In this document: piece after piece, positions 3,438 through 54,793 of the stretch | Layout: the number at the start of each line of letters is the position of its first letter | Position numbering within the stretch: position 1 is the first letter of the stretch | Sequence record: NC_055721.1 | Source of the DNA: Escherichia phage EcS1 | Reading direction: 5' to 3' (one strand) | DNA length: 64,000 nt | Notes under the pieces: generated by a model | Told to the model about the DNA's origin: nothing | Database searches by the model: none | The model's input: only the letters and a program-made list of their open reading frames with translations | Program-made: the position numbers and the translations under genes

Positions 3438-4267
3438 ATGTTCGGACACTGGTATAATTCATCACTGCGTCGCTATATTGTTTTAATGGGTGATTTGTTT
3501 TCCCATGTCCAGGTAGCACGTGTCAGAGCGGATGTAGGCACTAAGTTTATTAAAGTTCCTATTACTTATGCTTCAAAAGAAAAATTTATGTCTCAACTTG
3601 GCAAATGGACTGCTATTCAAAGCGCTCAAGATAAAGCCAAGATTGAAACAGTTCTTCCACGTATGAATCTTCATTTAGTGGACTTGCAATATAACGCACA
3701 ATATAAAACAGCTACCCAAAACAGAACTGCGGCTCAATATCAAGACGGTGACCCAAGAAAATCTGTTTCACAATTCAGTCCTACTCCAGTCAAAATGATT
3801 TTTGAGTTAGGCATTTATACTCGTCACCAAGACGATATGTATCAAATCATAGAACAAATTTTGCCTTATTTCCAACCTCATTTTAATACAACAATAACAG
3901 AACTTTATACAAATGAGATTAAATTCGAGCGTGACATCAGGATTGTATTCCAATCAGCTGCAATGGACGAACAAATAGAAGGTGACCCGATGACAAGACG
4001 TCGTTTGGAATGGTCTATTATGTTCGAAGTGAATGGTTGGCTTTATCCACCAGTTGCATCAATTGAAGGCGAAATCAGAACAGTATATATTGACTTCTTT
4101 GCCAATACTAAAGAGCTTACGCCTGAAGGCATATTCGAATCAGTTGATAGTGAAGTAGTTCCTAGATATGTAGAAGAAGCCGATTGGGACGGAAAATCAG
4201 AACAAACTTATTCGCATGATATTCCTATTCCTGTTGAGCCTGCGCCACCTAGCCCGAGGACTAATAA

Positions 4268-4271
<4 letters not shown>
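3438..4271 (+). CDS. 15: Tail sheath stabilizer / tail completion protein gp15
   Basis: 277 aa, synteny between 14 and 16; AGGAG-type RBS upstream. Confidence 0.8.
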
Positions 4272-6587
<2,316 letters not shown>

Positions 6588-46399: not shown

Positions 46400-47572
46400 C
46401 TACTCTTGTTCGATTACAATTTCTTTCTTATATTCGTCTGGAACGAAGAACTTGTGATTCTTGTTAAAAGCTTCGTTAAGCTGTGGAATTAACTTATCTA
46501 GGTCTAAACCACCTGTGAACGCTTTCATCAGAATTGGGAACAGATAAGAACGGTCTGCATCTTTAAAGATTGTTTGAGCAGAGATAGCGAAGTCTTTACG
46601 GTCACGACCAGCTAGTTGCTTATAAGTTGTTTGAACTAAGTCTAATGCATGACGCAAGAACTCTAAATGAATAGTTTCAAACTTATCAATCTTAGTGATA
46701 GCCCATTCATCGCCTGCGAACATAGAACGAAGGTCATCAGAACCACCAGACACGACAGATTCGAAGAGAGCTTCGTTTTTAGTGATGGAATCTTTAGTAC
46801 GATGCAAAGCAACATACCAATCAGTTTTGAGCTTAAAGTTCAAACCGTTTTCCATTACAAAAACATAACCTTCTACACCTTCTTTGGCGCGAATGCCAGG
46901 CACAAATCGTTCATCGGCAGGAACATTAAATGCTTCTACCAAATGAGGACGAAGCATTGCATCTTTAAACAATTCTTCATATGGAACATATTCACCAGTC
47001 TTATTTTCACGAACATTCAGAAGAATCAGGTCACGTTTACTATAAGCCAGAACGATACGGTTATCTGGTGCAACGTATTCCATGTTACAAGTGAAGCCAT
47101 CTTTAGTAAGTTGAGTCACACGTTTCAAGAATTTTTCATAACGTGGACCATTGATAACTTGTAGTGCTGCATAAGCTTGTTCAGAAGAAATAGAAGCCTT
47201 AGACTTCAAGAACAGTTGGTCGTTATCTACAAAGCTAGAGATTAGAGAACCATCAGCCTTATCCATCATCAATTTGATTTTAGTAAGGTCCAAGTTCATG
47301 GTAAATGGAGTTTCATCTAAGTTAAAGAATTTTTCCATCGGACGAGCTGCAATACGAGTAGGCTTACCATCGACCATTTCAAACATAATGCCGCGGCACT
47401 CTAGAGCGTCAGGCAGAAGCCAATCAGAGTAAGATGCATAGTTATAACTGAAGATACGATACTCACCACCAAACGGCGTCTGGTAGTCACGGAAATAGAA
47501 TTTAGACTGGTCTTTTGGGTCAGTCAATTTCATCAGGTTTTTGTACAAATCATGTTCTTGTTTAGTAATCAT
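46400..47572 (-). CDS. rnlA: RNA ligase 1
   Basis: 390 aa; YRIFSYNYASYSDWLLPDALECRGIMFEM, EKFFNL, KADGSL, RIVLAY, ILLNVRENKTGEY match recalled T4 Rnl1. Confidence 0.95.
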   Translation of the reverse strand: MITKQEHDLYKNLMKLTDPKDQSKFYFRDYQTPFGGEYRIFSYNYASYSDWLLPDALECRGIMFEMVDGKPTRIAARPMEKFFNLDETPFTMNLDLTKIKLMMDKADGSLISSFVDNDQLFLKSKASISSEQAYAALQVINGPRYEKFLKRVTQLTKDGFTCNMEYVAPDNRIVLAYSKRDLILLNVRENKTGEYVPYEELFKDAMLRPHLVEAFNVPADERFVPGIRAKEGVEGYVFVMENGLNFKLKTDWYVALHRTKDSITKNEALFESVVSGGSDDLRSMFAGDEWAITKIDKFETIHLEFLRHALDLVQTTYKQLAGRDRKDFAISAQTIFKDADRSYLFPILMKAFTGGLDLDKLIPQLNEAFNKNHKFFVPDEYKKEIVIEQE

Positions 47573-47982
47573 TTCTTAACCTTGTGCTGGACATTCCAGG
47601 GTGGATTGAATAGTTTAATGAACATCGGTTCTTCAAGGTCCATAGTGGCAACGGACATTGTGCCTAATTCGTTTGTCATGCTCAAATTAAAACATTGACG
47701 TGCGTAGAAGTCTACTTTCTTGTTATCCATCAAAGCTTCATGAATAAACACTGATTTAGTAGAATCACTAGTTGGATTGCTTCGATTTATAGCTGTACGA
47801 TAATAATTGATTCGTTTACGTAAGTTTTTTGTCTTACCAATATACACTAATTCATCATCTACAGCAATTGCATAGATTACGTTTGATTTATTTGGAACTG
47901 AAAGTAGTTCAATTTCTCCATTATTATTCATTTCGAGTGAAGCATATTTTATAAAAGAAAATTCATCTGCGAATGGTTTCAT
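47569..47982 (-). CDS. denA: Endonuclease II
   Basis: 137 aa; NVIYAIA.DDELVYIGKTKNLRKRINYYRTAINR, YARQCFNLSMTNELGTM, IKLFNPPWN match recalled T4 DenA. Confidence 0.95.
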   Translation of the reverse strand: MKPFADEFSFIKYASLEMNNNGEIELLSVPNKSNVIYAIAVDDELVYIGKTKNLRKRINYYRTAINRSNPTSDSTKSVFIHEALMDNKKVDFYARQCFNLSMTNELGTMSVATMDLEEPMFIKLFNPPWNVQHKVKK

Positions 47983-48010: not shown

Positions 48011-49189
48011 TTAGAGATATTTACGGAAGTCGGTTAGAACGCTCTCGTCTACGTCGTTATCAATCTGTGCTACAAGATAAGAAGACAAATCGACTTCTTG
48101 TGGAGCAGACTGAACCATATCACTATTTAAGTATTCGCGAATCCAAGATAATGGATGACGTACAGGAGCATCCTTAATTGGACAAGGGAGTCCACAAGAA
48201 TTCATACGTGATACTGTGAGGTAGTCAATAAAGTCGCTCAGGATTTTAACGTTTAACCCAGGCATACCACCATTACGGAACAAGTGGACGGCCCACTCTT
48301 TTTCCTGGCGGTTGACTTCCATGAAAATATCTACTGCTTCTTGTTCACACTCTTTAGCAATTTCTACCCATTCATCACCGTCAGTACCCATCTGCCATTG
48401 ACGAATAATGAATTGGGTCCCTTTAAGGTGAAGCTGTTCATCACGGGCAATGAACTTCATAATCTTACTGTTGCCTTCCATGATTTCCATATTCTTATGG
48501 AAGTTGAAAGTACAAGCGAAAGATACATAAAAACGTATTGCTTCAAGGGCATTGATAACATGCATGCACAAATAGAGCGCTTTCATCAAGTTGTGTTTAG
48601 CAATTTCTTCAGATTGTTCAGCAACACAGTATGAATCATAATCGTTACCTTGGACTTTATACCACTTTGTTTCTTCTTTAGCATTTTCCCACAAGCGGGT
48701 TTTAGTCAGAACATCATCATAATAAACACCAATAGATTCTGCACGTTTCATGATGGCTTCATCAAGAACGATTTCATCAAAAATCTTAGTTGGATCATTA
48801 AACAGGTTACGCATTATGTGTGTATATGAACGAGAGTGAATTGTTTCACTGAACGTCCAGGTCTGGTTCCAAGTATCAAGACTTGGGTCAGAAATCAGAG
48901 CAGATAATACTGCTGCTGGTGCACGACCTTGGATGGTATCAAGCAATGATTGATACTTCAGGTTGTTGATGAATATTTCTTTTTGGTGTTCTGGGAGCTT
49001 TTCATATTGAGCACGGTCCATCATCAGGTTAACTTCTTCAGGCCGCCAAAAAAACGATAACTGCTTTTCAATTAGGTCTTCAAATGTTTTATGATGCTGG
49101 ATGTCATAACGGGCAATACTTAGTCCTGAACCCAAGAACATTGGTTCATTCAAGACATCTACTTGTTCTTTATTAAAAACTGTACTCAT
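48011..49189 (-). CDS. nrdB: Ribonucleotide reductase small subunit (class Ia), uninterrupted
   Basis: 392 aa continuous ORF; di-iron motif region ETIHSRSYTHI. Confidence 0.95.
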   Translation of the reverse strand: MSTVFNKEQVDVLNEPMFLGSGLSIARYDIQHHKTFEDLIEKQLSFFWRPEEVNLMMDRAQYEKLPEHQKEIFINNLKYQSLLDTIQGRAPAAVLSALISDPSLDTWNQTWTFSETIHSRSYTHIMRNLFNDPTKIFDEIVLDEAIMKRAESIGVYYDDVLTKTRLWENAKEETKWYKVQGNDYDSYCVAEQSEEIAKHNLMKALYLCMHVINALEAIRFYVSFACTFNFHKNMEIMEGNSKIMKFIARDEQLHLKGTQFIIRQWQMGTDGDEWVEIAKECEQEAVDIFMEVNRQEKEWAVHLFRNGGMPGLNVKILSDFIDYLTVSRMNSCGLPCPIKDAPVRHPLSWIREYLNSDMVQSAPQEVDLSSYLVAQIDNDVDESVLTDFRKYL

Positions 49190-49374
49190 AAGGTGTAAGT
49201 CCTGTTTAGCATTTCAGGTGTCATTATTTGGGCTTTGCGTTCTTGTTCCATCTTTTCAGACAATTTAGCAAACGAGCGTTTTAATCGTTTAGTATATTCA
49301 GCTTTAAATTCAGGGTCTTTTAAAAGAAGATGATATGCTTCAATATCATAGTCAATCATTTTTAACTTCCTCAT
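49186..49374 (-). CDS. Hypothetical small protein
   Basis: 62 aa ORF. Confidence 0.4.
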   Translation of the reverse strand: MRKLKMIDYDIEAYHLLLKDPEFKAEYTKRLKRSFAKLSEKMEQERKAQIMTPEMLNRTYTL

Positions 49375-49555
49375 ATCTGAAATCTACGCTAGTGTATTCT
49401 TTAGGTGCAAAGGCTGTACCAATCCTGATACCTTCTAGCATATTGTATAATGCAGAATGTTCGTTACGTTTGATTGGTACAGATTTTAATTTTGCTATGG
49501 TAAATAAACGCTCATTTTGTCGTGAAAATTTGATATAGATTTTGTATTCTTTCAT
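49352..49555 (-). CDS. Hypothetical small protein
   Basis: 67 aa ORF preceded by hairpin. Confidence 0.4.
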   Translation of the reverse strand: MKEYKIYIKFSRQNERLFTIAKLKSVPIKRNEHSALYNMLEGIRIGTAFAPKEYTSVDFRYEEVKND

Positions 49556-49570
49556 TTTGTTTTTCTCAGA

Positions 49571-49586
49571 AGGACATCCGTGTCCT
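49571..49586 (-). other. Hairpin AGGACA-TCCG-TGTCCT between nrdA and downstream small ORF
   Basis: Read directly. Confidence 0.5.
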
Positions 49587-49593
49587 CATTATA

Positions 49594-51855
49594 TCAAAGT
49601 TTACAAGAAGAGCAATCTTCTTCTTTTGGAACTTCGATTTCATAATCATCAGTACCAGAACCATCACGAGTATTATGATAGTAAGCTGTCTTACCACCGA
49701 AGTACCACAGATGAAGCATATCATCCATCATGACTGACATCGGAACCTTACCTTTAGGGTAGTTCTGTGGGTCATAGTACATGTTAGTAGAAATAGACTG
49801 ACATACGAATTTCTGCATAATTGCTACTTGATTCAAGTAACCTTTATTACCAGATTTCGCTAACTTCCAAGCATAATCATAAAGATCAACATTAGTATCA
49901 ACATTAGGCACAACTTGGTTAAAGGAACCTTCTTTCGATTCTTTAACACTTACAGGCCCACGTGGCGGCTCGATACCATTAGTGCTATTTGATACCTGGC
50001 TCGAAGATTCACAAGGCATGAGCGCGGATAAGGTACTGTTACGGATACCGTAACTTCTGAGGTCTTCCCGCAACTGTTCCCAGTCACAAACGTACGATGG
50101 GGCTGCGAGTTGGTCAATCTTTTTATTGTACCAGTCGATAGGTAACTCGCCTCTAGACCAACGAGTGTCTGAATAATACTCGCAATGGCCTTTTTCTTTC
50201 GCTAATTTGACTGATGCTCTGATGAGTGCATATTGAAGTCTTTCCATCATTTCGTGAGTTAAATCGTTTGCATCATTATATGATGCAAAGTTATCAGCTA
50301 ACCAAGCAGCATAGTTCGTGATACCAACACCGAGTGCACGACGTTTTTTAGCTTTCAAAGCTTCCGGGACAGGATAACCTTGATAGTCTAATAAATTATC
50401 TAAAGCACGAACTTGTACTTCGGCTAATTCGTTAATTTCGTCTTGGTTCTGCCAATCGAAGTTACCGAGTACATAAGCAGATAAAGTGCAAAGTGCGATT
50501 TCTGGGTCTTCACCACCAACGTCTTTAGTAGGAAGCGCGATTTCACAGCACAAGTTTGATTGCTTAACCGTAGCCACATCACGAATAAAAGGACCATACT
50601 CACCGACGTTATCTACAAAGTAAGGGTAAATACGAGCCGTACCTGAACGTTCAGTAAAGAACAATTCGAAGAGCTCGCGAGCTTTAATTCGTTTCTTACG
50701 AACCGTAGGATCTTTTTCTAAAGCTTCATAGAAATTACGGAACTTCAGAGGGTCAGCAAAATACGCTTCGTAAAGTTCGCCTTTCATGATGTCAGGACTG
50801 AACAACGTGATGTAATCATTTTTAACCAAACGTTCAAACATCAGGTCATTAATCTGAACACCATAGTCTAGATGACGAATACGGTTTTCATCTACACCTT
50901 TGTTGTTCTTCAGAACTAACAGGTTTTCCACTTCAAGATGCCATATCGGATAATACAACGTTGCTGCACCACCACGTACGCCACCTTGTGAACAACTCTT
51001 CACTGCGGTTTGGAAATGTTTCCAGAATGGAATCACCCCAGTATGTTTGACTTCACCATGACCAATCTTAGAACCTTCAGCACGAATCATACCACCATTA
51101 ATACCAATACCAGCACGTTTACTGATATAACGAATAATAGCTTCTGCACCTTTGTTAATTGATGTCAGTGAATCACCACTTTCAATAACAACACAAGAAC
51201 TAAACTGACGAGTTGGAGTACGAACACCTGCCATAATAGGAGTAGGCAACGAAACCTTACGAGTTGAAACAGCATCATAAAAACGAACTACGTTCTTAAT
51301 ACGATGTTCACCATCATCTTGGTGCAAACACATACCGATAAGCATGAATGCAAATTGAGGCGTTTCATAAATCTTGCCAGTTGAACGATCTTTGACTAGG
51401 TATTTTTCGATTAACTGCATCGTACCAGCATAAGTGAATTCAAAGTCACGGTCGTGTTTGATTTGAGATTCAAACAACTGGATTTCTTCTGCAGACCATT
51501 TGCTTAGGATTTCGGTGTCATAAAGACCTGCGTTAACTACTGAAGAGATGTGGTCGATAAACCGAGGTGGTTCGAATTGATTGAAAACATCTTTACGAAG
51601 ACCAAACATAGCTAGATTACTTGCTACATATTGATAATCTGGTTCGTCAACTGTAATACGGTTAGCAGCAACTTTAATAACTGCTTTATGAATTTCTTTA
51701 GTGGTCATTCCATCACGCAGATGACTTTTAACTTCTTCATAAAGGTCATAAGGGTTAACGGCTATAGATGTACTTGCGCACGACCATTCAAGGACTTGGA
51801 TGATTTTACTTGGTGTAAAATCTTGACTAACGCCTGAACTTTTTATTACTTGCAT
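49594..51855 (-). CDS. nrdA: Ribonucleotide reductase large subunit (start reassigned to MQVIKSSGVSQDF)
   Basis: 753 aa from internal ATG matching recalled T4 NrdA N-terminus; C-terminal CxxC redox tail (CSSCKL). Confidence 0.95.
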   Translation of the reverse strand: MQVIKSSGVSQDFTPSKIIQVLEWSCASTSIAVNPYDLYEEVKSHLRDGMTTKEIHKAVIKVAANRITVDEPDYQYVASNLAMFGLRKDVFNQFEPPRFIDHISSVVNAGLYDTEILSKWSAEEIQLFESQIKHDRDFEFTYAGTMQLIEKYLVKDRSTGKIYETPQFAFMLIGMCLHQDDGEHRIKNVVRFYDAVSTRKVSLPTPIMAGVRTPTRQFSSCVVIESGDSLTSINKGAEAIIRYISKRAGIGINGGMIRAEGSKIGHGEVKHTGVIPFWKHFQTAVKSCSQGGVRGGAATLYYPIWHLEVENLLVLKNNKGVDENRIRHLDYGVQINDLMFERLVKNDYITLFSPDIMKGELYEAYFADPLKFRNFYEALEKDPTVRKKRIKARELFELFFTERSGTARIYPYFVDNVGEYGPFIRDVATVKQSNLCCEIALPTKDVGGEDPEIALCTLSAYVLGNFDWQNQDEINELAEVQVRALDNLLDYQGYPVPEALKAKKRRALGVGITNYAAWLADNFASYNDANDLTHEMMERLQYALIRASVKLAKEKGHCEYYSDTRWSRGELPIDWYNKKIDQLAAPSYVCDWEQLREDLRSYGIRNSTLSALMPCESSSQVSNSTNGIEPPRGPVSVKESKEGSFNQVVPNVDTNVDLYDYAWKLAKSGNKGYLNQVAIMQKFVCQSISTNMYYDPQNYPKGKVPMSVMMDDMLHLWYFGGKTAYYHNTRDGSGTDDYEIEVPKEEDCSSCKL

Positions 51856-51874
51856 TTTTGTCCCATATTGTGAA

Positions 51875-51882
51875 TATAAATA
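51875..51882 (+). promoter_or_regulatory. Late promoter TATAAATA upstream of I-TevI-like HEG
   Basis: Perfect box 26 nt before ATG, GAGGAG RBS between. Confidence 0.55.
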
Positions 51883-51907
51883 CCAAAATATAGAGGAGTT
51901 ACCCCAC

Positions 51908-52666
51908 ATGAAATCAGGCATTTATAGAATAATTAACATTAATAATAACAAATCTTACGTTGGCAGCACTATAGACTTCCAAGCAAGATGGAAACGACAT
52001 TTTTCGGATTTGAAGAACGGGTGTCATTCTTCAATCAAACTCCAACGTTCATACGATAAACATGGTAAAGATTCATTCGTTTGTGAAATAGTTGAGCAGA
52101 CTCCATATGATGAATCTATAATTTCATTAGAAGATTATTATATCATCTATTTTGATTCAAAACAAAACGGATATAATATTGCTAACGCAGCATTTGGCGA
52201 CACTTTATCGCACCACCCTAACAAAGAAGAAATATTTAAGAAAATAAGCATTTCTCTTAGAGAAAACAATGAAAAACTTTCTGAAGAAGAAAGGAAAAAT
52301 AAATTTGGAAGTAAAAGTTGTAAGAAAGGTAAAAGCTACGAAGAATTTTACGGAGCTAAAAAGGCTCAAGAAATAGGTCTTAAACTTTCAGAAAGCAATT
52401 ATAATAGACAAATGTCTGGAACTAATAATCCATTCTTTGGTAAGACACATAGTGACGAAGTTAGAAAGAGAATTTCTGCCACACAGAAAGGACGTAAGAA
52501 ACCTCATGTTAAATTAAGTATAGAAGGAACTATTTATCAATCAGTGGCAGAAGCAATGAAAGCCACAAATCTTTCTCGTAAAGTTATAGAAAGACGTTGT
52601 GGCTCTGAATTATTCATAGATTGGTTTAGACTTCATATAGCCATTTTACCTTTAATTGGAGGGTGA
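51908..52666 (+). CDS. Free-standing GIY-YIG homing endonuclease, I-TevI-like
   Basis: 252 aa; KSGIYRI..N.KSYVGST.DF.ARWKRHFSDLKNGCHSSIKLQRS, NGYNIANAAFGDT.SHHP.KEEI and C-terminal HTH-like IEGTIYQSVAEAMKATNLSRKVIERR align with recalled I-TevI; TATAAATA and GAGGAG upstream. Confidence 0.9.
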   Translation: MKSGIYRIININNNKSYVGSTIDFQARWKRHFSDLKNGCHSSIKLQRSYDKHGKDSFVCEIVEQTPYDESIISLEDYYIIYFDSKQNGYNIANAAFGDTLSHHPNKEEIFKKISISLRENNEKLSEEERKNKFGSKSCKKGKSYEEFYGAKKAQEIGLKLSESNYNRQMSGTNNPFFGKTHSDEVRKRISATQKGRKKPHVKLSIEGTIYQSVAEAMKATNLSRKVIERRCGSELFIDWFRLHIAILPLIGG

Positions 52667-53496
52667 CTTTCATAATTTTTCAAAACAAAGTCTTCATGCA
52701 TTGTCATTTCAGTTACCCAAGTCAATTGAGCATGAGTTGTAGACACGTCAAAGTTAGAAGGTAGACCTTTGATTTCTAACTGACACAGCTCTTTAGGTTC
52801 ACGTCGTAGAATTTCTTTACACTGTTCTACATGGTTCAAATAGATGTGTGTATTGCCGCCTGAGAACACTAAGTCACCTGGAATAAGATTACACATCTTC
52901 GCTACGATATGCACAAGAGCGGCGTATGACGCAATATTAAATGGCAATCCTAAGAACACGTCAACACTTCGTTGATACCATTGCAAGTCTAGGTGGCCTT
53001 CACGCACGTTGAACTGATAGAACATATGACAAGGTGGAAGAGCCATCTTATCAATTTCAGCTGGGTTCCATGCTGAAACAATTTGACGACGATCATTAGG
53101 CATAGCCTTGATACGCTCAATTGTTTTAATTACCTGGTCGACGCCACCGAAATCTCGCCATTGCTTCCCATAAACAGGACCAAGTTCGCCACCAGAATAG
53201 CCAAGGTCTTTTGCTTGGTTTTCATAGTTATCGTCCCAAATAGTGTTACCGTCAAGATAAGAACCATGTGTACGGAATCGAAGGTCATTGACATTTGTAG
53301 AACCAGACAAGAACCACAGAAGCTCAGAGATACAGGCTTTCCATGCTAATTTCTTAGTCGTTACAGCTGGAAAACCTTTAGTCAGGTCCCAGCGTAGTTT
53401 AGTACCGAACAATGCTATCGTACCAGTTCCAGTACGATCATCAGTTTCATAACCATTAGTCAAAATGTGTTGAATCAGATGTTGATATTGCTTCAT
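52633..53496 (-). CDS. td: Thymidylate synthase, intronless
   Basis: 287 aa continuous ORF, ThyA-like throughout. Confidence 0.95.
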   Translation of the reverse strand: MKQYQHLIQHILTNGYETDDRTGTGTIALFGTKLRWDLTKGFPAVTTKKLAWKACISELLWFLSGSTNVNDLRFRTHGSYLDGNTIWDDNYENQAKDLGYSGGELGPVYGKQWRDFGGVDQVIKTIERIKAMPNDRRQIVSAWNPAEIDKMALPPCHMFYQFNVREGHLDLQWYQRSVDVFLGLPFNIASYAALVHIVAKMCNLIPGDLVFSGGNTHIYLNHVEQCKEILRREPKELCQLEIKGLPSNFDVSTTHAQLTWVTEMTMHEDFVLKNYESHPPIKGKMAI

Positions 53497-53906
53497 TAAT
53501 AATTCTCTTGTAAAGGATAAAAGAGGATTTCACGTCCATTCTTTTCGAATCGACCAATCATGATAACAGAATCAGAAGTATACTCTATATTTCCTAAAGC
53601 AGAGGCCTTTACAAGTTGTCCGTAATGAGGACAAACTTTCATACGTCCTTGGTCGAATACACCTGGACCACCTGCATAACAATAGAAATAGTCAGAACCA
53701 CCACGAATAGCTTCTACGGCTACTTCTATTTTGTAGATTCCATGTTCAAAAATATCAGCGGCATATCGTTGTGGGTCTTTTTTATATTCAGCAATTGTTG
53801 GTGCTGAAATCAAAGGACATAATGGCCAGTTCTTTTGTTCTTCACGTTTAAGTAATGTTAGGAGCATAATGTTCTTCCAGTGGATTGATATAAACTTCTG
53901 AGCCAA
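53496..53906 (-). CDS. Hypothetical protein, paralog A of tandem pair (probable start at 53867, MLLTLL)
   Basis: Shares LTLL..K.W...HGIY.(V/I)E and GN(V/I).Y...GRF.K.G.E...PL(E/Q)E(N/H)Y with 53848..54195; stop overlaps td start. Confidence 0.5.
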   Translation of the reverse strand: MAQKFISIHWKNIMLLTLLKREEQKNWPLCPLISAPTIAEYKKDPQRYAADIFEHGIYKIEVAVEAIRGGSDYFYCYAGGPGVFDQGRMKVCPHYGQLVKASALGNIEYTSDSVIMIGRFEKNGREILFYPLQENY

Positions 53907-54195
53907 TTTTGTAGAATCGACCAGTGATAACCATCACAGGACCATTCTCTGAATCATTATAAGTCACATTACCTGCAGCATGACCTAAGAACCATGTTTT
54001 AGTAGAAGTGCCGATATAAACAGGCTCATTGCCTTTATTGTTATACATGCAGCAGTCTTTAGACCATTGGTACAATTCATTGACTGGAATTTCTACACGA
54101 TAGATTCCATGCTCGTGACGCCAATTCTTCCAGACTTTTTGTTTCTTGTCTGCTTCAAGAAGAGTTAAGTTATACCCCAGTTTTGACATATACAT
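53848..54195 (-). CDS. Hypothetical protein, paralog B of tandem pair
   Basis: Paralogous to 53496..53906 (see above). Confidence 0.5.
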   Translation of the reverse strand: MYMSKLGYNLTLLEADKKQKVWKNWRHEHGIYRVEIPVNELYQWSKDCCMYNNKGNEPVYIGTSTKTWFLGHAAGNVTYNDSENGPVMVITGRFYKIGSEVYINPLEEHYAPNIT

Positions 54196-54793
54196 CCTCG
54201 CTGATATTTGTTACTGCATCAATATGATAATAGTGAGATTCTTTAAACAAGAAACCAGAGTCTTCGCGCGCTGGAGCAACAATAAAGCTCATTGGCAATT
54301 GAGTGTCAGAGTTCACCCTGTGACGTTTACGGATAGAGGTTTGTATTACCTTATCTGAGAATGGATAAGCTTGCTGAAGTAGTCCTGCACCACCTATCAC
54401 TGAATATACACCTTCTTCACGACTAAAGATAGCATTGAAATCAGCATTAGGGCTAGAAACTTGAAGTTCATGACCGTTCAGGAATTTATCGAATTGATAG
54501 TCACTTATATAAAAGTGAGCCAATGAGCCATCTTGAGTTGTAGGATAGTCACGAGACAAATCGCAAACAACTACATGAGGGCGTCCTACTAGTGGCTTAG
54601 GGAAACTAGAAAACGTCTTAGCTCCCATAATTAAAGTAGTGCCTTCAGTACGAGCTTTAAAGTTTTTAAGGTCTTGAGGAATATGGCCCCATGGTAACCC
54701 ACCATTTATTCCAAATGCAAATTCATTTTCGCCTGAAACAGTTTTAGTCCCAGCATAAGCATAAATTAATTGAATCATTGATTTTCCCACCAT
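54170..54793 (-). CDS. frd: Dihydrofolate reductase
   Basis: ELAFG...GLPWG, DL.NFKARTEGT.MIMGAKTF, HIVVCDL.RDYP.T.DG.LAHFYI, QVSSPNA, VIGG match recalled T4 Frd. Confidence 0.92.
   Translation of the reverse strand: MVGKSMIQLIYAYAGTKTVSGENEFAFGINGGLPWGHIPQDLKNFKARTEGTTLIMGAKTFSSFPKPLVGRPHVVVCDLSRDYPTTQDGSLAHFYISDYQFDKFLNGHELQVSSPNADFNAIFSREEGVYSVIGGAGLLQQAYPFSDKVIQTSIRKRHRVNSDTQLPMSFIVAPAREDSGFLFKESHYYHIDAVTNISEDVYVKTGV

What the first reader, a model, noticed from the sequence alone, without database searches (positions are those of the whole stretch)
48011..53496. nrdB, nrdA and td are all intron-free although a td-associated endonuclease is present
T4 carries self-splicing group I introns in td and nrdB (from memory). 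Here all three genes are continuous ORFs of expected length, so homing sites may be intact targets, while the I-TevI-like gene exists as a free-standing element nearby.
Basis: partly seen in the sequence, partly recalled or inferred. Interest (0 to 1): 0.3.

Follow-up and report, generated by a model that had tools for sequence, protein, structure and literature searches.

The report
Free-standing I-TevI relative beside intron-free td
In this T4-like phage the td, nrdA and nrdB genes have no introns, and a selfish nuclease gene closely related to the T4 td-intron endonuclease sits between td and nrdA on the opposite strand, where it replaces a small gene (nrdA.1); this is a well-known kind of mobile element and only moderately interesting.

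Summary
nrdB (48011-49189), nrdA (49594-51855; the ORF runs on to 51921) and td (52633-53496) are single minus-strand ORFs. They are collinear with spliced or intronless T4-group homologues across both T4 intron insertion points.

The ORF at 51908-52666 (+) is a genuine I-TevI relative: about 60% identical in the catalytic domain and 44% overall, with all catalytic residues kept but no zinc finger. It is antisense to its neighbours, overlaps the td 3' end by 34 nt, and has its own late promoter (TATAAATA) and ribosome-binding site.

Comparative genomics shows it is a mobile cassette:
- It is about 97% identical to the Erwinia phage Gravdalen copy, while the flanks are about 85% identical.
- It is absent from most relatives.
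- In four genera it sits in the same slot, and every phage carrying it lacks nrdA.1 (DUF4326).
- A related pair of phages shows co-converted td and nrdA ends.
- dN/dS is 0.06-0.11.

Its target is most likely in the segment it replaces, not the td intron site. That site is identical in carriers and non-carriers, and the gene coexists with the td intron in phage sutha.

The td site keeps its CAACG cleavage motif, so it is plausibly still a target for I-TevI; that cannot be tested here.

Verdict: a new member of a known kind, of modest interest.

The parts
48011..49189 (-). nrdB (ribonucleotide reductase small subunit), uninterrupted, 392 aa
   Evidence: Pfam PF00268. Collinear with intronless sutha NrdB (76%) and CHI14 NrdB (91%).
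48491..48544 (-). Equivalent of the T4/RB3 nrdB intron insertion site (junction between 48514 and 48513). Continuous coding sequence, 47 of 54 nt identical to the RB3 exon junction.
49186..49555 (-). Two small ORFs (62 and 67 aa) in the nrdA-nrdB intergenic slot, where T4 carries mobE. No endonuclease gene here.
   Evidence: The pattern against Gravdalen and CHI14 is mosaic.
49594..51855 (-). nrdA (ribonucleotide reductase large subunit), uninterrupted, 753 aa. The ORF extends upstream to 51921, but the homologous start is the ATG at 51855.
   Evidence: Pfam ATP-cone, RNR_lgN and RNR_lgC. 95% identity to CHI14 NrdA and 77% to RB3 NrdA, full length. Start alignment.
51856..52640 (.). Mobile endonuclease cassette (about 785 bp) occupying the position of nrdA.1. 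Junctions lie within 51842-51857 and 52640-52656.
   Evidence: About 97% identical to Gravdalen across the endonuclease ORF (92-99% per 100-nt window over the cassette) against about 85% in the flanks. Gravdalen's flanks are 99% identical to CHI14, which lacks the cassette.
51875..51882 (+). T4-type late promoter TATAAATA for the endonuclease gene
   Evidence: It is the only plus-strand copy between 24 kb and 59 kb of the window. A TATAAATA lies 16-27 nt upstream of the ATG in all seven free-standing homologues examined.
51893..51898 (+). Shine-Dalgarno sequence GAGGAG
51899..51909 (+). Conserved 11-mer TTACCCCACAT overlapping the start codon; candidate regulatory element (operator?)
   Evidence: Found exactly once, just 5' of the endonuclease gene, in each of L001, L003, L005, L007 and L011, and in none of the other loci. 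Sutha has a one-mismatch copy. It sits in different places relative to the promoter in the two subgroups.
51908..52666 (+). Free-standing GIY-YIG homing endonuclease gene, an I-TevI paralogue (252 aa). The last 10 codons read antisense into the td 3' end.
52633..53496 (-). td (thymidylate synthase), uninterrupted, 287 aa
   Evidence: Pfam PF00303. Collinear with spliced RB3 Td.
52927..52974 (-). Equivalent of the I-TevI homing site in td (junction between 52948 and 52947): CAACGAAGTGTTGACGTGTTCTTAGGA|TTGCCATTTAATATTGCGTCA
   Evidence: CAACG is retained. There are 12 synonymous differences from my recalled T4 sequence.

Best explanation
The region is the nucleotide-metabolism cluster of a T4-like phage related to Winklervirus. 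Its td, nrdA and nrdB have no introns, which is the usual state in the relatives examined outside the T4 genus (Tequatrovirus).

The ORF at 51908-52666 is an intact free-standing GIY-YIG homing endonuclease gene under purifying selection. It belongs to the sister lineage of the intron-encoded I-TevI. It forms a self-contained cassette of about 785 bp with its own late promoter and ribosome-binding site, pointing against the surrounding early/middle genes. It is therefore probably made only late in infection.

Proposed mechanism (inferred, not shown):
1. In a mixed infection with a relative that lacks the cassette, the enzyme cuts that relative's DNA inside the segment the cassette replaces. 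That segment is nrdA.1 (DUF4326) plus its junctions with the last codons of td and the nrdA ribosome-binding site.
2. Double-strand-break repair copies the cassette from the carrier genome. This deletes nrdA.1 and sometimes co-converts the adjacent td 3' and nrdA 5' ends.
3. The carrier genome is immune because the target segment is gone.
For: Identity (shown):
- Pfam GIY-YIG, NUMOD3 and I-TevI_DNA-bd; TIGR01453; PHROG 314.
- 60% identity to the I-TevI catalytic domain and E=6e-8 to its DNA-binding domain; 44% identity over the full length.
- Y6, Y17, R27, H31, H40, E75 and N90 are invariant.

Purifying selection (shown): dN/dS is 0.06 for window versus Gravdalen and 0.11 for PKO111 versus Ozark.

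Mobility (shown):
- The endonuclease ORF is about 97% identical to Gravdalen, and 100-nt windows across the cassette run 92-99%, while the flanks are about 85%. Gravdalen's flanks are 99% identical to CHI14, which lacks the cassette. The junctions lie within about 15 nt of the nrdA ATG and within the last 8 or so codons of td.
- Only 1 of the close Winklervirus records and 18 of 153 Jiaodavirus-type records carry it.
- The PKO111 copy is 91% identical to copies in Escherichia Tequatroviruses, although the flanks do not match.
- phiR1-RT versus TG1 shows co-conversion: about 110 nt of nrdA and about 180 nt of td are diverged against a 96-100% background. Those tracts resemble Kanagawavirus and Jiaodavirus alleles.

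Replacement of nrdA.1 (shown): nrdA.1 is present in 6 of 6 loci without the endonuclease and absent from 6 of 6 loci with it, across four genera.

Target bracket (inferred): in the PKO111 and kv6-1 pair, td (except its last 6 or so codons) and nrdA are 100% identical. No immunity polymorphism exists outside the replaced segment.

Late expression (inferred): TATAAATA plus a Shine-Dalgarno sequence precede all seven free-standing homologues.
Against: - No cleavage site has been mapped. The target bracket assumes the enzyme is active and that immunity depends on sequence.
- The Gravdalen copy is frameshifted, so the family does decay.
- The window copy has a 10-codon C-terminal read-through into antisense td, with unknown effect.
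- The replaced segment differs between genera: nrdA.1 alone, or nrdA.1 plus another small ORF. Only nrdA.1 and the nrdA ribosome-binding-site junction are common to all.
- Characterised T4 free-standing endonucleases (SegF, SegG, MobE) cut inside a conserved neighbouring gene, not inside the segment they replace.
- The 12 loci compared are a small sample and are not phylogenetically independent.
Confidence: 0.6

Rival explanations
1. The free-standing enzyme recognises the same site as I-TevI. It would cut intronless td at or near the intron insertion site, so the intron-free td of related phages is its target, as in collaborative or trans homing.
For: - It is the closest relative of I-TevI and lies next to td.
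- The td 3' end travels with it in phiR1-RT and PKO111.
- Four synonymous differences between phiR1-RT and TG1 cluster at +6 to +24 of the I-TevI-type site.
Against: - The td site is identical in PKO111 (carrier) and kv6-1 and 15882-1 (non-carriers), and in Gravdalen and CHI14. The window's own td also keeps CAACG and the conserved 3' half-site, so the enzyme would cut its own genome.
- The contiguous co-converted tract in phiR1-RT ends more than 120 nt short of the site.
- The DNA-binding half is only about 30% identical to that of I-TevI, and the zinc finger is absent.
Confidence: 0.08
2. The target lies in the coding sequence of a conserved neighbour, either the first 100 or so nt of nrdA or the last 200 or so nt of td. 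This is how SegF, SegG and MobE work. Carrier genomes would be protected by silent substitutions there.
For: - Both gene ends are co-converted in phiR1-RT.
- The last 2-6 codons of td change with the cassette in three genera.
- The window's td 3' end is unusually diverged: 64% identity at 52693-52792.
Against: - In Gravdalen, nrdA is CHI14-like to within 14 nt of its ATG, and td is CHI14-like except for its last 8 or so codons.
- In PKO111 both genes are 100% identical to relatives lacking the cassette, apart from the last 6 or so td codons.
- In Ozark and sutha, td is separated from the cassette by nrdA.2, and sutha's td end is RB3-like.
Confidence: 0.2
3. The gene is no longer a mobile element. 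It is a decaying remnant, or a domesticated nuclease or regulator kept for another role, such as excluding competitors or repressing transcription.
For: - The Gravdalen copy carries a 1-nt deletion.
- The window copy has lost the ancestral stop codon.
- There is no zinc finger.
- I-TevI itself also acts as a repressor (PMC2988022).
Against: - dN/dS of 0.06-0.11 and invariant catalytic residues.
- Recent transfers between lineages and genera with sharp cassette boundaries.
- Patchy distribution typical of active homing endonuclease genes.
Confidence: 0.12

Closest known systems
I-TevI (T4 td group I intron endonuclease; PDB 1mk0, 1ln0, 1i3j)
   Same: - Same family (TIGR01453) and the same domain order: GIY-YIG, linker, NUMOD3 helix, C-terminal helix-turn-helix.
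- About 60% identity in the catalytic domain, with all catalytic residues kept.
- Driven by a late promoter.
- Located in the td neighbourhood of T4-like phages.
- The two form one clade with 94% bootstrap support.
   Different: - Not inside an intron.
- On the opposite strand to td.
- Lacks the four-cysteine zinc finger that fixes the cleavage distance.
- The DNA-binding half is only about 30% identical.
- Replaces nrdA.1 rather than splitting td.
- The target is very probably not the td intron site.
I-BmoI (Bacillus mojavensis thyA intron endonuclease)
   Same: A GIY-YIG enzyme of the I-TevI type that naturally lacks the linker zinc finger (PMC5009752).
   Different: I-BmoI is intron-encoded and targets thyA. 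It is bacterial rather than from a T4-like phage. I did not compare the sequences directly.
T4 seg genes (SegA-G) and MobE: free-standing endonucleases that spread by intronless homing
   Same: - A free-standing endonuclease gene in an intergenic slot between conserved genes.
- Patchy distribution among relatives.
- Flanking co-conversion and marker exclusion (PMC2988022, PMC2790892).
   Different: - Most seg and mob genes lie in the same orientation as their neighbours, and several have no promoter of their own.
- This one is antisense with its own late promoter.
- Its target appears to lie in the replaced segment rather than in a retained neighbouring gene.
SegD of T4
   Same: According to PMC2988022, the only T4 homing endonuclease gene oriented against its neighbours.
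   Different: No segD-specific promoter was found, and its expression is thought to be very low. Here a canonical late promoter and Shine-Dalgarno sequence are conserved in all seven homologues. The locus also differs (genes 23/24).
Free-standing endonucleases beside intron or target genes, such as F-CphI next to cyanophage psbA and the 'collaborative homing' model (from my own knowledge; not checked here)
   Same: A free-standing relative of an intron endonuclease lies next to the gene that carries the intron in other phages.
   Different: No evidence here that the enzyme cuts the intron insertion site; the evidence points away from it.

Membership tests
I-TevI-type GIY-YIG homing endonucleases (TIGR01453; PF01541 + PF07460 + PF20987) | N-terminal GIY-YIG catalytic domain with the catalytic residues (Y6, Y17, R27, H31, H40, E75, N90 in I-TevI numbering) | tested here: met
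   PF01541 at 57.2 bits. 1mk0 at E=5e-32 over residues 1-97. All seven residues are invariant in the alignment.
I-TevI-type GIY-YIG homing endonucleases (TIGR01453; PF01541 + PF07460 + PF20987) | Whole-protein score above the curated family threshold | tested here: met
   TIGR01453 at 120.8 bits against a cutoff of 56.05.
I-TevI-type GIY-YIG homing endonucleases (TIGR01453; PF01541 + PF07460 + PF20987) | C-terminal DNA-binding module: NUMOD3 minor-groove helix plus helix-turn-helix | tested here: met
   NUMOD3 at 31.6 bits, above its cutoff of 20.4. I-TevI_DNA-bd at 23.8 bits, below its cutoff of 27, but phmmer against 1i3j gives E=5.7e-8 over residues 157-242.
I-TevI-type GIY-YIG homing endonucleases (TIGR01453; PF01541 + PF07460 + PF20987) | Four-cysteine zinc finger in the linker (a feature of I-TevI itself, not of the whole family) | tested here: not met
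   None of the four cysteines is present in the window protein or in any of the five free-standing homologues aligned.
I-TevI-type GIY-YIG homing endonucleases (TIGR01453; PF01541 + PF07460 + PF20987) | Site-specific double-strand cut at a CNNNG motif set at a distance from the binding site | not testable with these tools
   Needs purified protein and a substrate lacking the cassette.
Intron-encoded endonuclease / T4-type group I intron in td or nrdB | The host gene is interrupted at the T4 insertion site by a ribozyme-containing insert | tested here: not met
   td and nrdB read through both junctions. blastn with the RB3 intron DNA finds only the endonuclease ORF. The Rfam negatives are uninformative because the positive control failed.
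Free-standing (seg-like) homing endonuclease genes of T4-like phages | Located between conserved genes, with presence or absence varying among close relatives | tested here: met
   Present in the window, Gravdalen, phiR1-RT, PKO111, Ozark, sutha and Apostate. Absent from CHI14, TG1, kv6-1, 15882-1, RB3 and KLB31.
Free-standing (seg-like) homing endonuclease genes of T4-like phages | Signature of lateral spread: the cassette is more similar than its flanks, or flanking markers are co-converted | tested here: met
   Cassette ORF about 97% identical against about 85% in the flanks. Co-conversion tracts in phiR1-RT. 91% identity between genera.
Free-standing (seg-like) homing endonuclease genes of T4-like phages | Endonuclease-dependent biased inheritance in mixed infection | not testable with these tools
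   Requires phage crosses.

The most novel reading that the evidence does not exclude
This cassette may belong to a free-standing, zinc-finger-less sister lineage of I-TevI that has stayed in the td neighbourhood of T4-like phages and switched target from td to nrdA.1, or the reverse. Its conserved 11-mer (TTACCCCAYAT) at the promoter or start codon would then be an autorepressor operator that mirrors the homing site, as in I-TevI. If so, the pair (I-TevI inside the td intron, and this gene about 1 kb away in phages such as sutha) would be a natural system for asking how a free-standing endonuclease gene enters or leaves a group I intron, and how target and distance specificity change when the zinc finger is lost.
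Probability: 0.15. Interest if true: 0.55.

Novelty: new member of a known kind. Interest (0 to 1): 0.3.

Why it matters
For annotation: the gene should not be labelled an intron endonuclease, and td, nrdA and nrdB need no splicing model.

For biology, the cassette offers three things:
- It is a clean natural example of endonuclease-driven mosaicism in T4-like phages. It is exchanged between genera with sharp boundaries, and a conserved small gene (nrdA.1, DUF4326) is lost each time.
- As the closest free-standing relative of I-TevI, the best-studied GIY-YIG enzyme, it is a natural variant without the zinc-finger "ruler". That could interest people who build Tev-based genome editors.
- It is relevant to how endonuclease genes and introns become associated.

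None of this overturns current understanding.

Tried and rejected
1. Rfam scans for group I introns found nothing. The positive control on RB3 and sutha, which carry real td and nrdB introns, also found nothing. I dropped this evidence and relied on collinearity and blastn.

2. I considered whether the conserved leader motif is a remnant or mirror of nrdA.1 codons M-W-G-N (11 of 12 match, with a CNNNG 7 nt away). Matches this good occur in 6-7% of shuffled leaders (an earlier attempt, timed out), and CNNNG is too common to be informative. I keep it only as a lead.

3. A simple "insertion remnant" model for the motif fails. In the window subgroup, the promoter and Shine-Dalgarno sequence lie on the side of the motif where nrdA.1 sequence would be expected.

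4. A search of IMG/VR for more close relatives returned only the source contig itself (IMGVR_UViG_2974737508_000001) and distant GIY-YIG genes.

5. Literature searches found no description of an I-TevI-like gene in the td/nrdA slot and no function for nrdA.1. The library is incomplete, so this is weak evidence of novelty.

6. phmmer with SegG, MobE, I-TevIII and a partial TG1 HNH protein found no other endonuclease genes in the window.

7. No intrinsic terminator was found downstream of the endonuclease gene.
Full report
**What is in the region.**
ORF listing and Pfam show a minus-strand cluster typical of T4-like phages:
- rnlA (46400-47572)
- denA (47569-47982)
- nrdB (48011-49189)
- two small ORFs
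- nrdA (49594-51855)
- td (52633-53496)
- two small paralogous ORFs
- frd (54170-54793)

One plus-strand ORF (51908-52666, 252 aa) lies between nrdA and td. The nearest sequenced phages are Winklerviruses, at 84-87% nucleotide identity: Erwinia phage Gravdalen, Serratia phage CHI14 and Kosakonia phage Kc304. The window is identical to IMG/VR contig IMGVR_UViG_2974737508_000001, which is 175,437 bp long.

**Checking the observation.**
RB3, a T4-genus phage, has td and nrdB annotated as two-exon genes containing I-TevI and I-TevIII, with mobE between nrdA and nrdB. I used RB3 to define the exon junctions.
- The window's Td, NrdA and NrdB align end to end with spliced or intronless homologues, with at most one small gap.
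- The DNA runs straight through both junctions.
- blastn of the RB3 intron DNA against the window matches only the endonuclease coding region. There is no ribozyme core.
- Rfam found nothing, but it also failed on the real introns of RB3 and sutha, so I discard that evidence.

Two corrections apply: nrdA starts at 51855, and the endonuclease gene is on the opposite strand and overlaps the td stop by 34 nt.

**State of the homing sites.**
- At the I-TevI site the window reads CAACGAAGTGTTGACGTGTTCTTAGGA|TTGCCATTTAATATTGCGTCA.
- My recalled T4 sequence is CAACGCTCAGTAGATGTTTTCTTGGGT|CTACCGTTTAATATTGCGTCA. RB3 differs from it at three positions.
- The CAACG motif is retained. Its C1 and G5 are the critical positions (PMC5009752).
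- The 12 differences are all synonymous.
- I-TevI tolerates many substitutions in its site (PMC2988022). The site is therefore plausibly still cleavable, but this cannot be computed.
- The nrdB site matches RB3 at 47 of 54 positions.

**The endonuclease.**
- It matches GIY-YIG, NUMOD3 and I-TevI_DNA-bd and TIGR01453 well above its cutoff.
- It matches the I-TevI structures and is 44% identical to I-TevI over the full length.
- All catalytic residues are conserved. The four zinc-finger cysteines are missing from this protein and from every free-standing homologue aligned.
- A canonical late promoter TATAAATA (51875-51882) and the ribosome-binding sequence GAGGAG precede the ATG. The same arrangement is found in all seven free-standing homologues.
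- PMC2988022 notes that only segD among T4 endonuclease genes is antisense to its neighbours. Here, antisense orientation plus a private late promoter would confine expression to late infection. This is an inference.
- No terminator follows the gene.

**It is a mobile cassette.**
A three-way alignment of the window, Gravdalen and CHI14 shows the following:
- The endonuclease ORF is about 97% identical between the window and Gravdalen (20 substitutions in 726 nt), and 100-nt windows across 51856-52640 run 92-99%. The flanks are about 85% identical.
- Gravdalen's flanks are 99% identical to CHI14, which has a 101-aa ORF in place of the cassette.
- The switch points lie within 51842-51857 and 52640-52656.

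That 101-aa ORF is the homologue of T4/RB3 nrdA.1 (69% identity) and matches DUF4326.

The same antisense gene occupies the td-nrdA slot in several other genera:
- Tegunavirus phiR1-RT (65% amino-acid identity)
- Jiaodaviruses such as PKO111 (56%)
- Tequatroviruses such as Ozark and sutha (57%)
- Acinetobacter phages such as Apostate (about 45%)

nrdA.1 is present in all six loci without the cassette (CHI14, TG1, kv6-1, 15882-1, RB3, KLB31). It is absent from all six enterobacterial loci with it, and from the whole 64-kb window.

Within Jiaodavirus-type records, 18 of 153 carry the gene. The PKO111 copy is 91% identical to copies in Escherichia Tequatroviruses, although the flanks do not match.

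In the phiR1-RT and TG1 pair the background identity is 96-100%. The first 110 or so nt of nrdA and the last 180 or so nt of td are nevertheless strongly diverged. Those tracts resemble Kanagawavirus alleles (94% for nrdA) and Jiaodavirus alleles (for td). This is co-conversion during transfer between genera.

dN/dS is 0.06 for window versus Gravdalen and 0.11 for PKO111 versus Ozark. The Gravdalen copy carries a 1-nt deletion. The family therefore shows the gain, selection and decay cycle expected of homing endonuclease genes.

**Where it probably cuts.**
- In the PKO111 and kv6-1 pair, nrdA and td are 100% identical right up to the cassette, apart from the last 6 or so codons of td.
- In Gravdalen and CHI14 the same is true to within about 15 nt.
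- A carrier genome must lack its own target. The target should therefore lie in the replaced segment.
- The only component of that segment shared by all four genera is nrdA.1, together with its junction to the nrdA ribosome-binding site.

This is inference, and it assumes the enzyme is active.

The same argument excludes the I-TevI-type td site, which is identical in carriers and non-carriers. The coexistence of the gene with the td intron in sutha points the same way.

**An unexplained conserved element.**
- The 11-mer TTACCCCAYAT occurs exactly once, immediately 5' of the gene, in every locus with the cassette except sutha, which has a one-mismatch copy. It occurs nowhere else in the 23 loci.
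- In the window and phiR1-RT subgroup it lies between the ribosome-binding site and the ATG. In the Ozark and PKO111 subgroup it abuts the late promoter.
- By analogy with the I-TevI operator (PMC2988022) it could be an autorepressor site. The leader region contains no CNNNG.
- Its resemblance to nrdA.1 codons M-W-G-N is not statistically significant.

**Relationship to I-TevI.**
A neighbour-joining tree groups the free-standing genes of this slot with intron-encoded I-TevI (94% bootstrap) to the exclusion of other GIY-YIG genes. The four enterobacterial free-standing genes form their own clade (93%). The branching order among that clade, Apostate and I-TevI is unresolved.

**Verdict.**
The finding is real and correctly described. 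Its interesting part is not the absence of introns, which is the usual state in the relatives examined outside the T4 genus. It is the free-standing I-TevI paralogue.

This is a new member of a known kind, the free-standing GIY-YIG homing endonucleases of T4-like phages. Homologues are already annotated in GenBank as "I-TevI homing endonuclease" or "homing endonuclease". I found no description in the papers searched. Interest is modest.

Noticed in passing
window 49186-49555: The nrdA-nrdB intergenic slot, where T4 carries mobE, holds two small ORFs (62 and 67 aa, no Pfam match). One part resembles only Gravdalen (80% at 49196-49295). The other resembles only CHI14 (93% at 49396-49495). This is a second mosaic spot with no endonuclease gene.
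   Followed up: partly
window 53496-54195: The two ORFs between frd and td (136 and 115 aa, no Pfam match) look like tandem paralogues: both contain HGIY(K/R)(I/V)E...GRF...(I/L)(F/Y)(I/Y)(N/P)(P/L)(L/Q)EE-like stretches. RB3 has only one ORF at this position.
   Followed up: no
window 52693-52792: The 3' part of td is only 64% identical to Gravdalen and CHI14, against about 85% for the rest of the gene. This could be an old co-conversion tract or simply the variable C-terminal region of phage Td.
   Followed up: partly
L004 (RB3) and L008 (sutha): Rfam release 15 at gathering threshold does not detect the genuine T4-type td and nrdB group I introns that contain endonuclease ORFs. Rfam negatives for such introns are unreliable.
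   Followed up: yes
L010 (Yersinia phage TG1) 1-1973: TG1's annotated nrdA is only 1599 nt and is followed by an HNH homing endonuclease gene. This suggests an nrdA split by an endonuclease insertion, as described for Aeromonas phage Aeh1 (PMC3045599).
   Followed up: no
L007 (Ozark) 4473-4860 versus L004 and L008: The 3' half of Ozark's intronless td is strongly diverged from the intron-containing td of RB3 and sutha, although the adjacent nrdA.2 and nrdA are 96-99% identical. This is a separate mosaic boundary associated with the presence or absence of the intron.
   Followed up: no
L008 (sutha) 4001-6186: Phage sutha carries both the free-standing I-TevI paralogue and, about 1 kb away, the td intron with an I-TevI that is 88.6% identical to RB3's. 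At least three other records show two matching places. This arrangement could allow one endonuclease to mobilise the other element in trans.
   Followed up: partly
window, whole: TATAAATA occurs 16 times against 5.8 expected. The copies cluster on the plus strand between 6.5 and 20.4 kb, presumably a late-gene block. Only three copies lie beyond 40 kb, one of which is the endonuclease promoter.
   Followed up: no
L005 (PKO111) 2696-2941: In Jiaodaviruses the cassette carries an extra 81-aa minus-strand ORF between the endonuclease gene and nrdA. This ORF is absent from relatives lacking the cassette, so it is cargo of unknown function travelling with the endonuclease gene.
   Followed up: no
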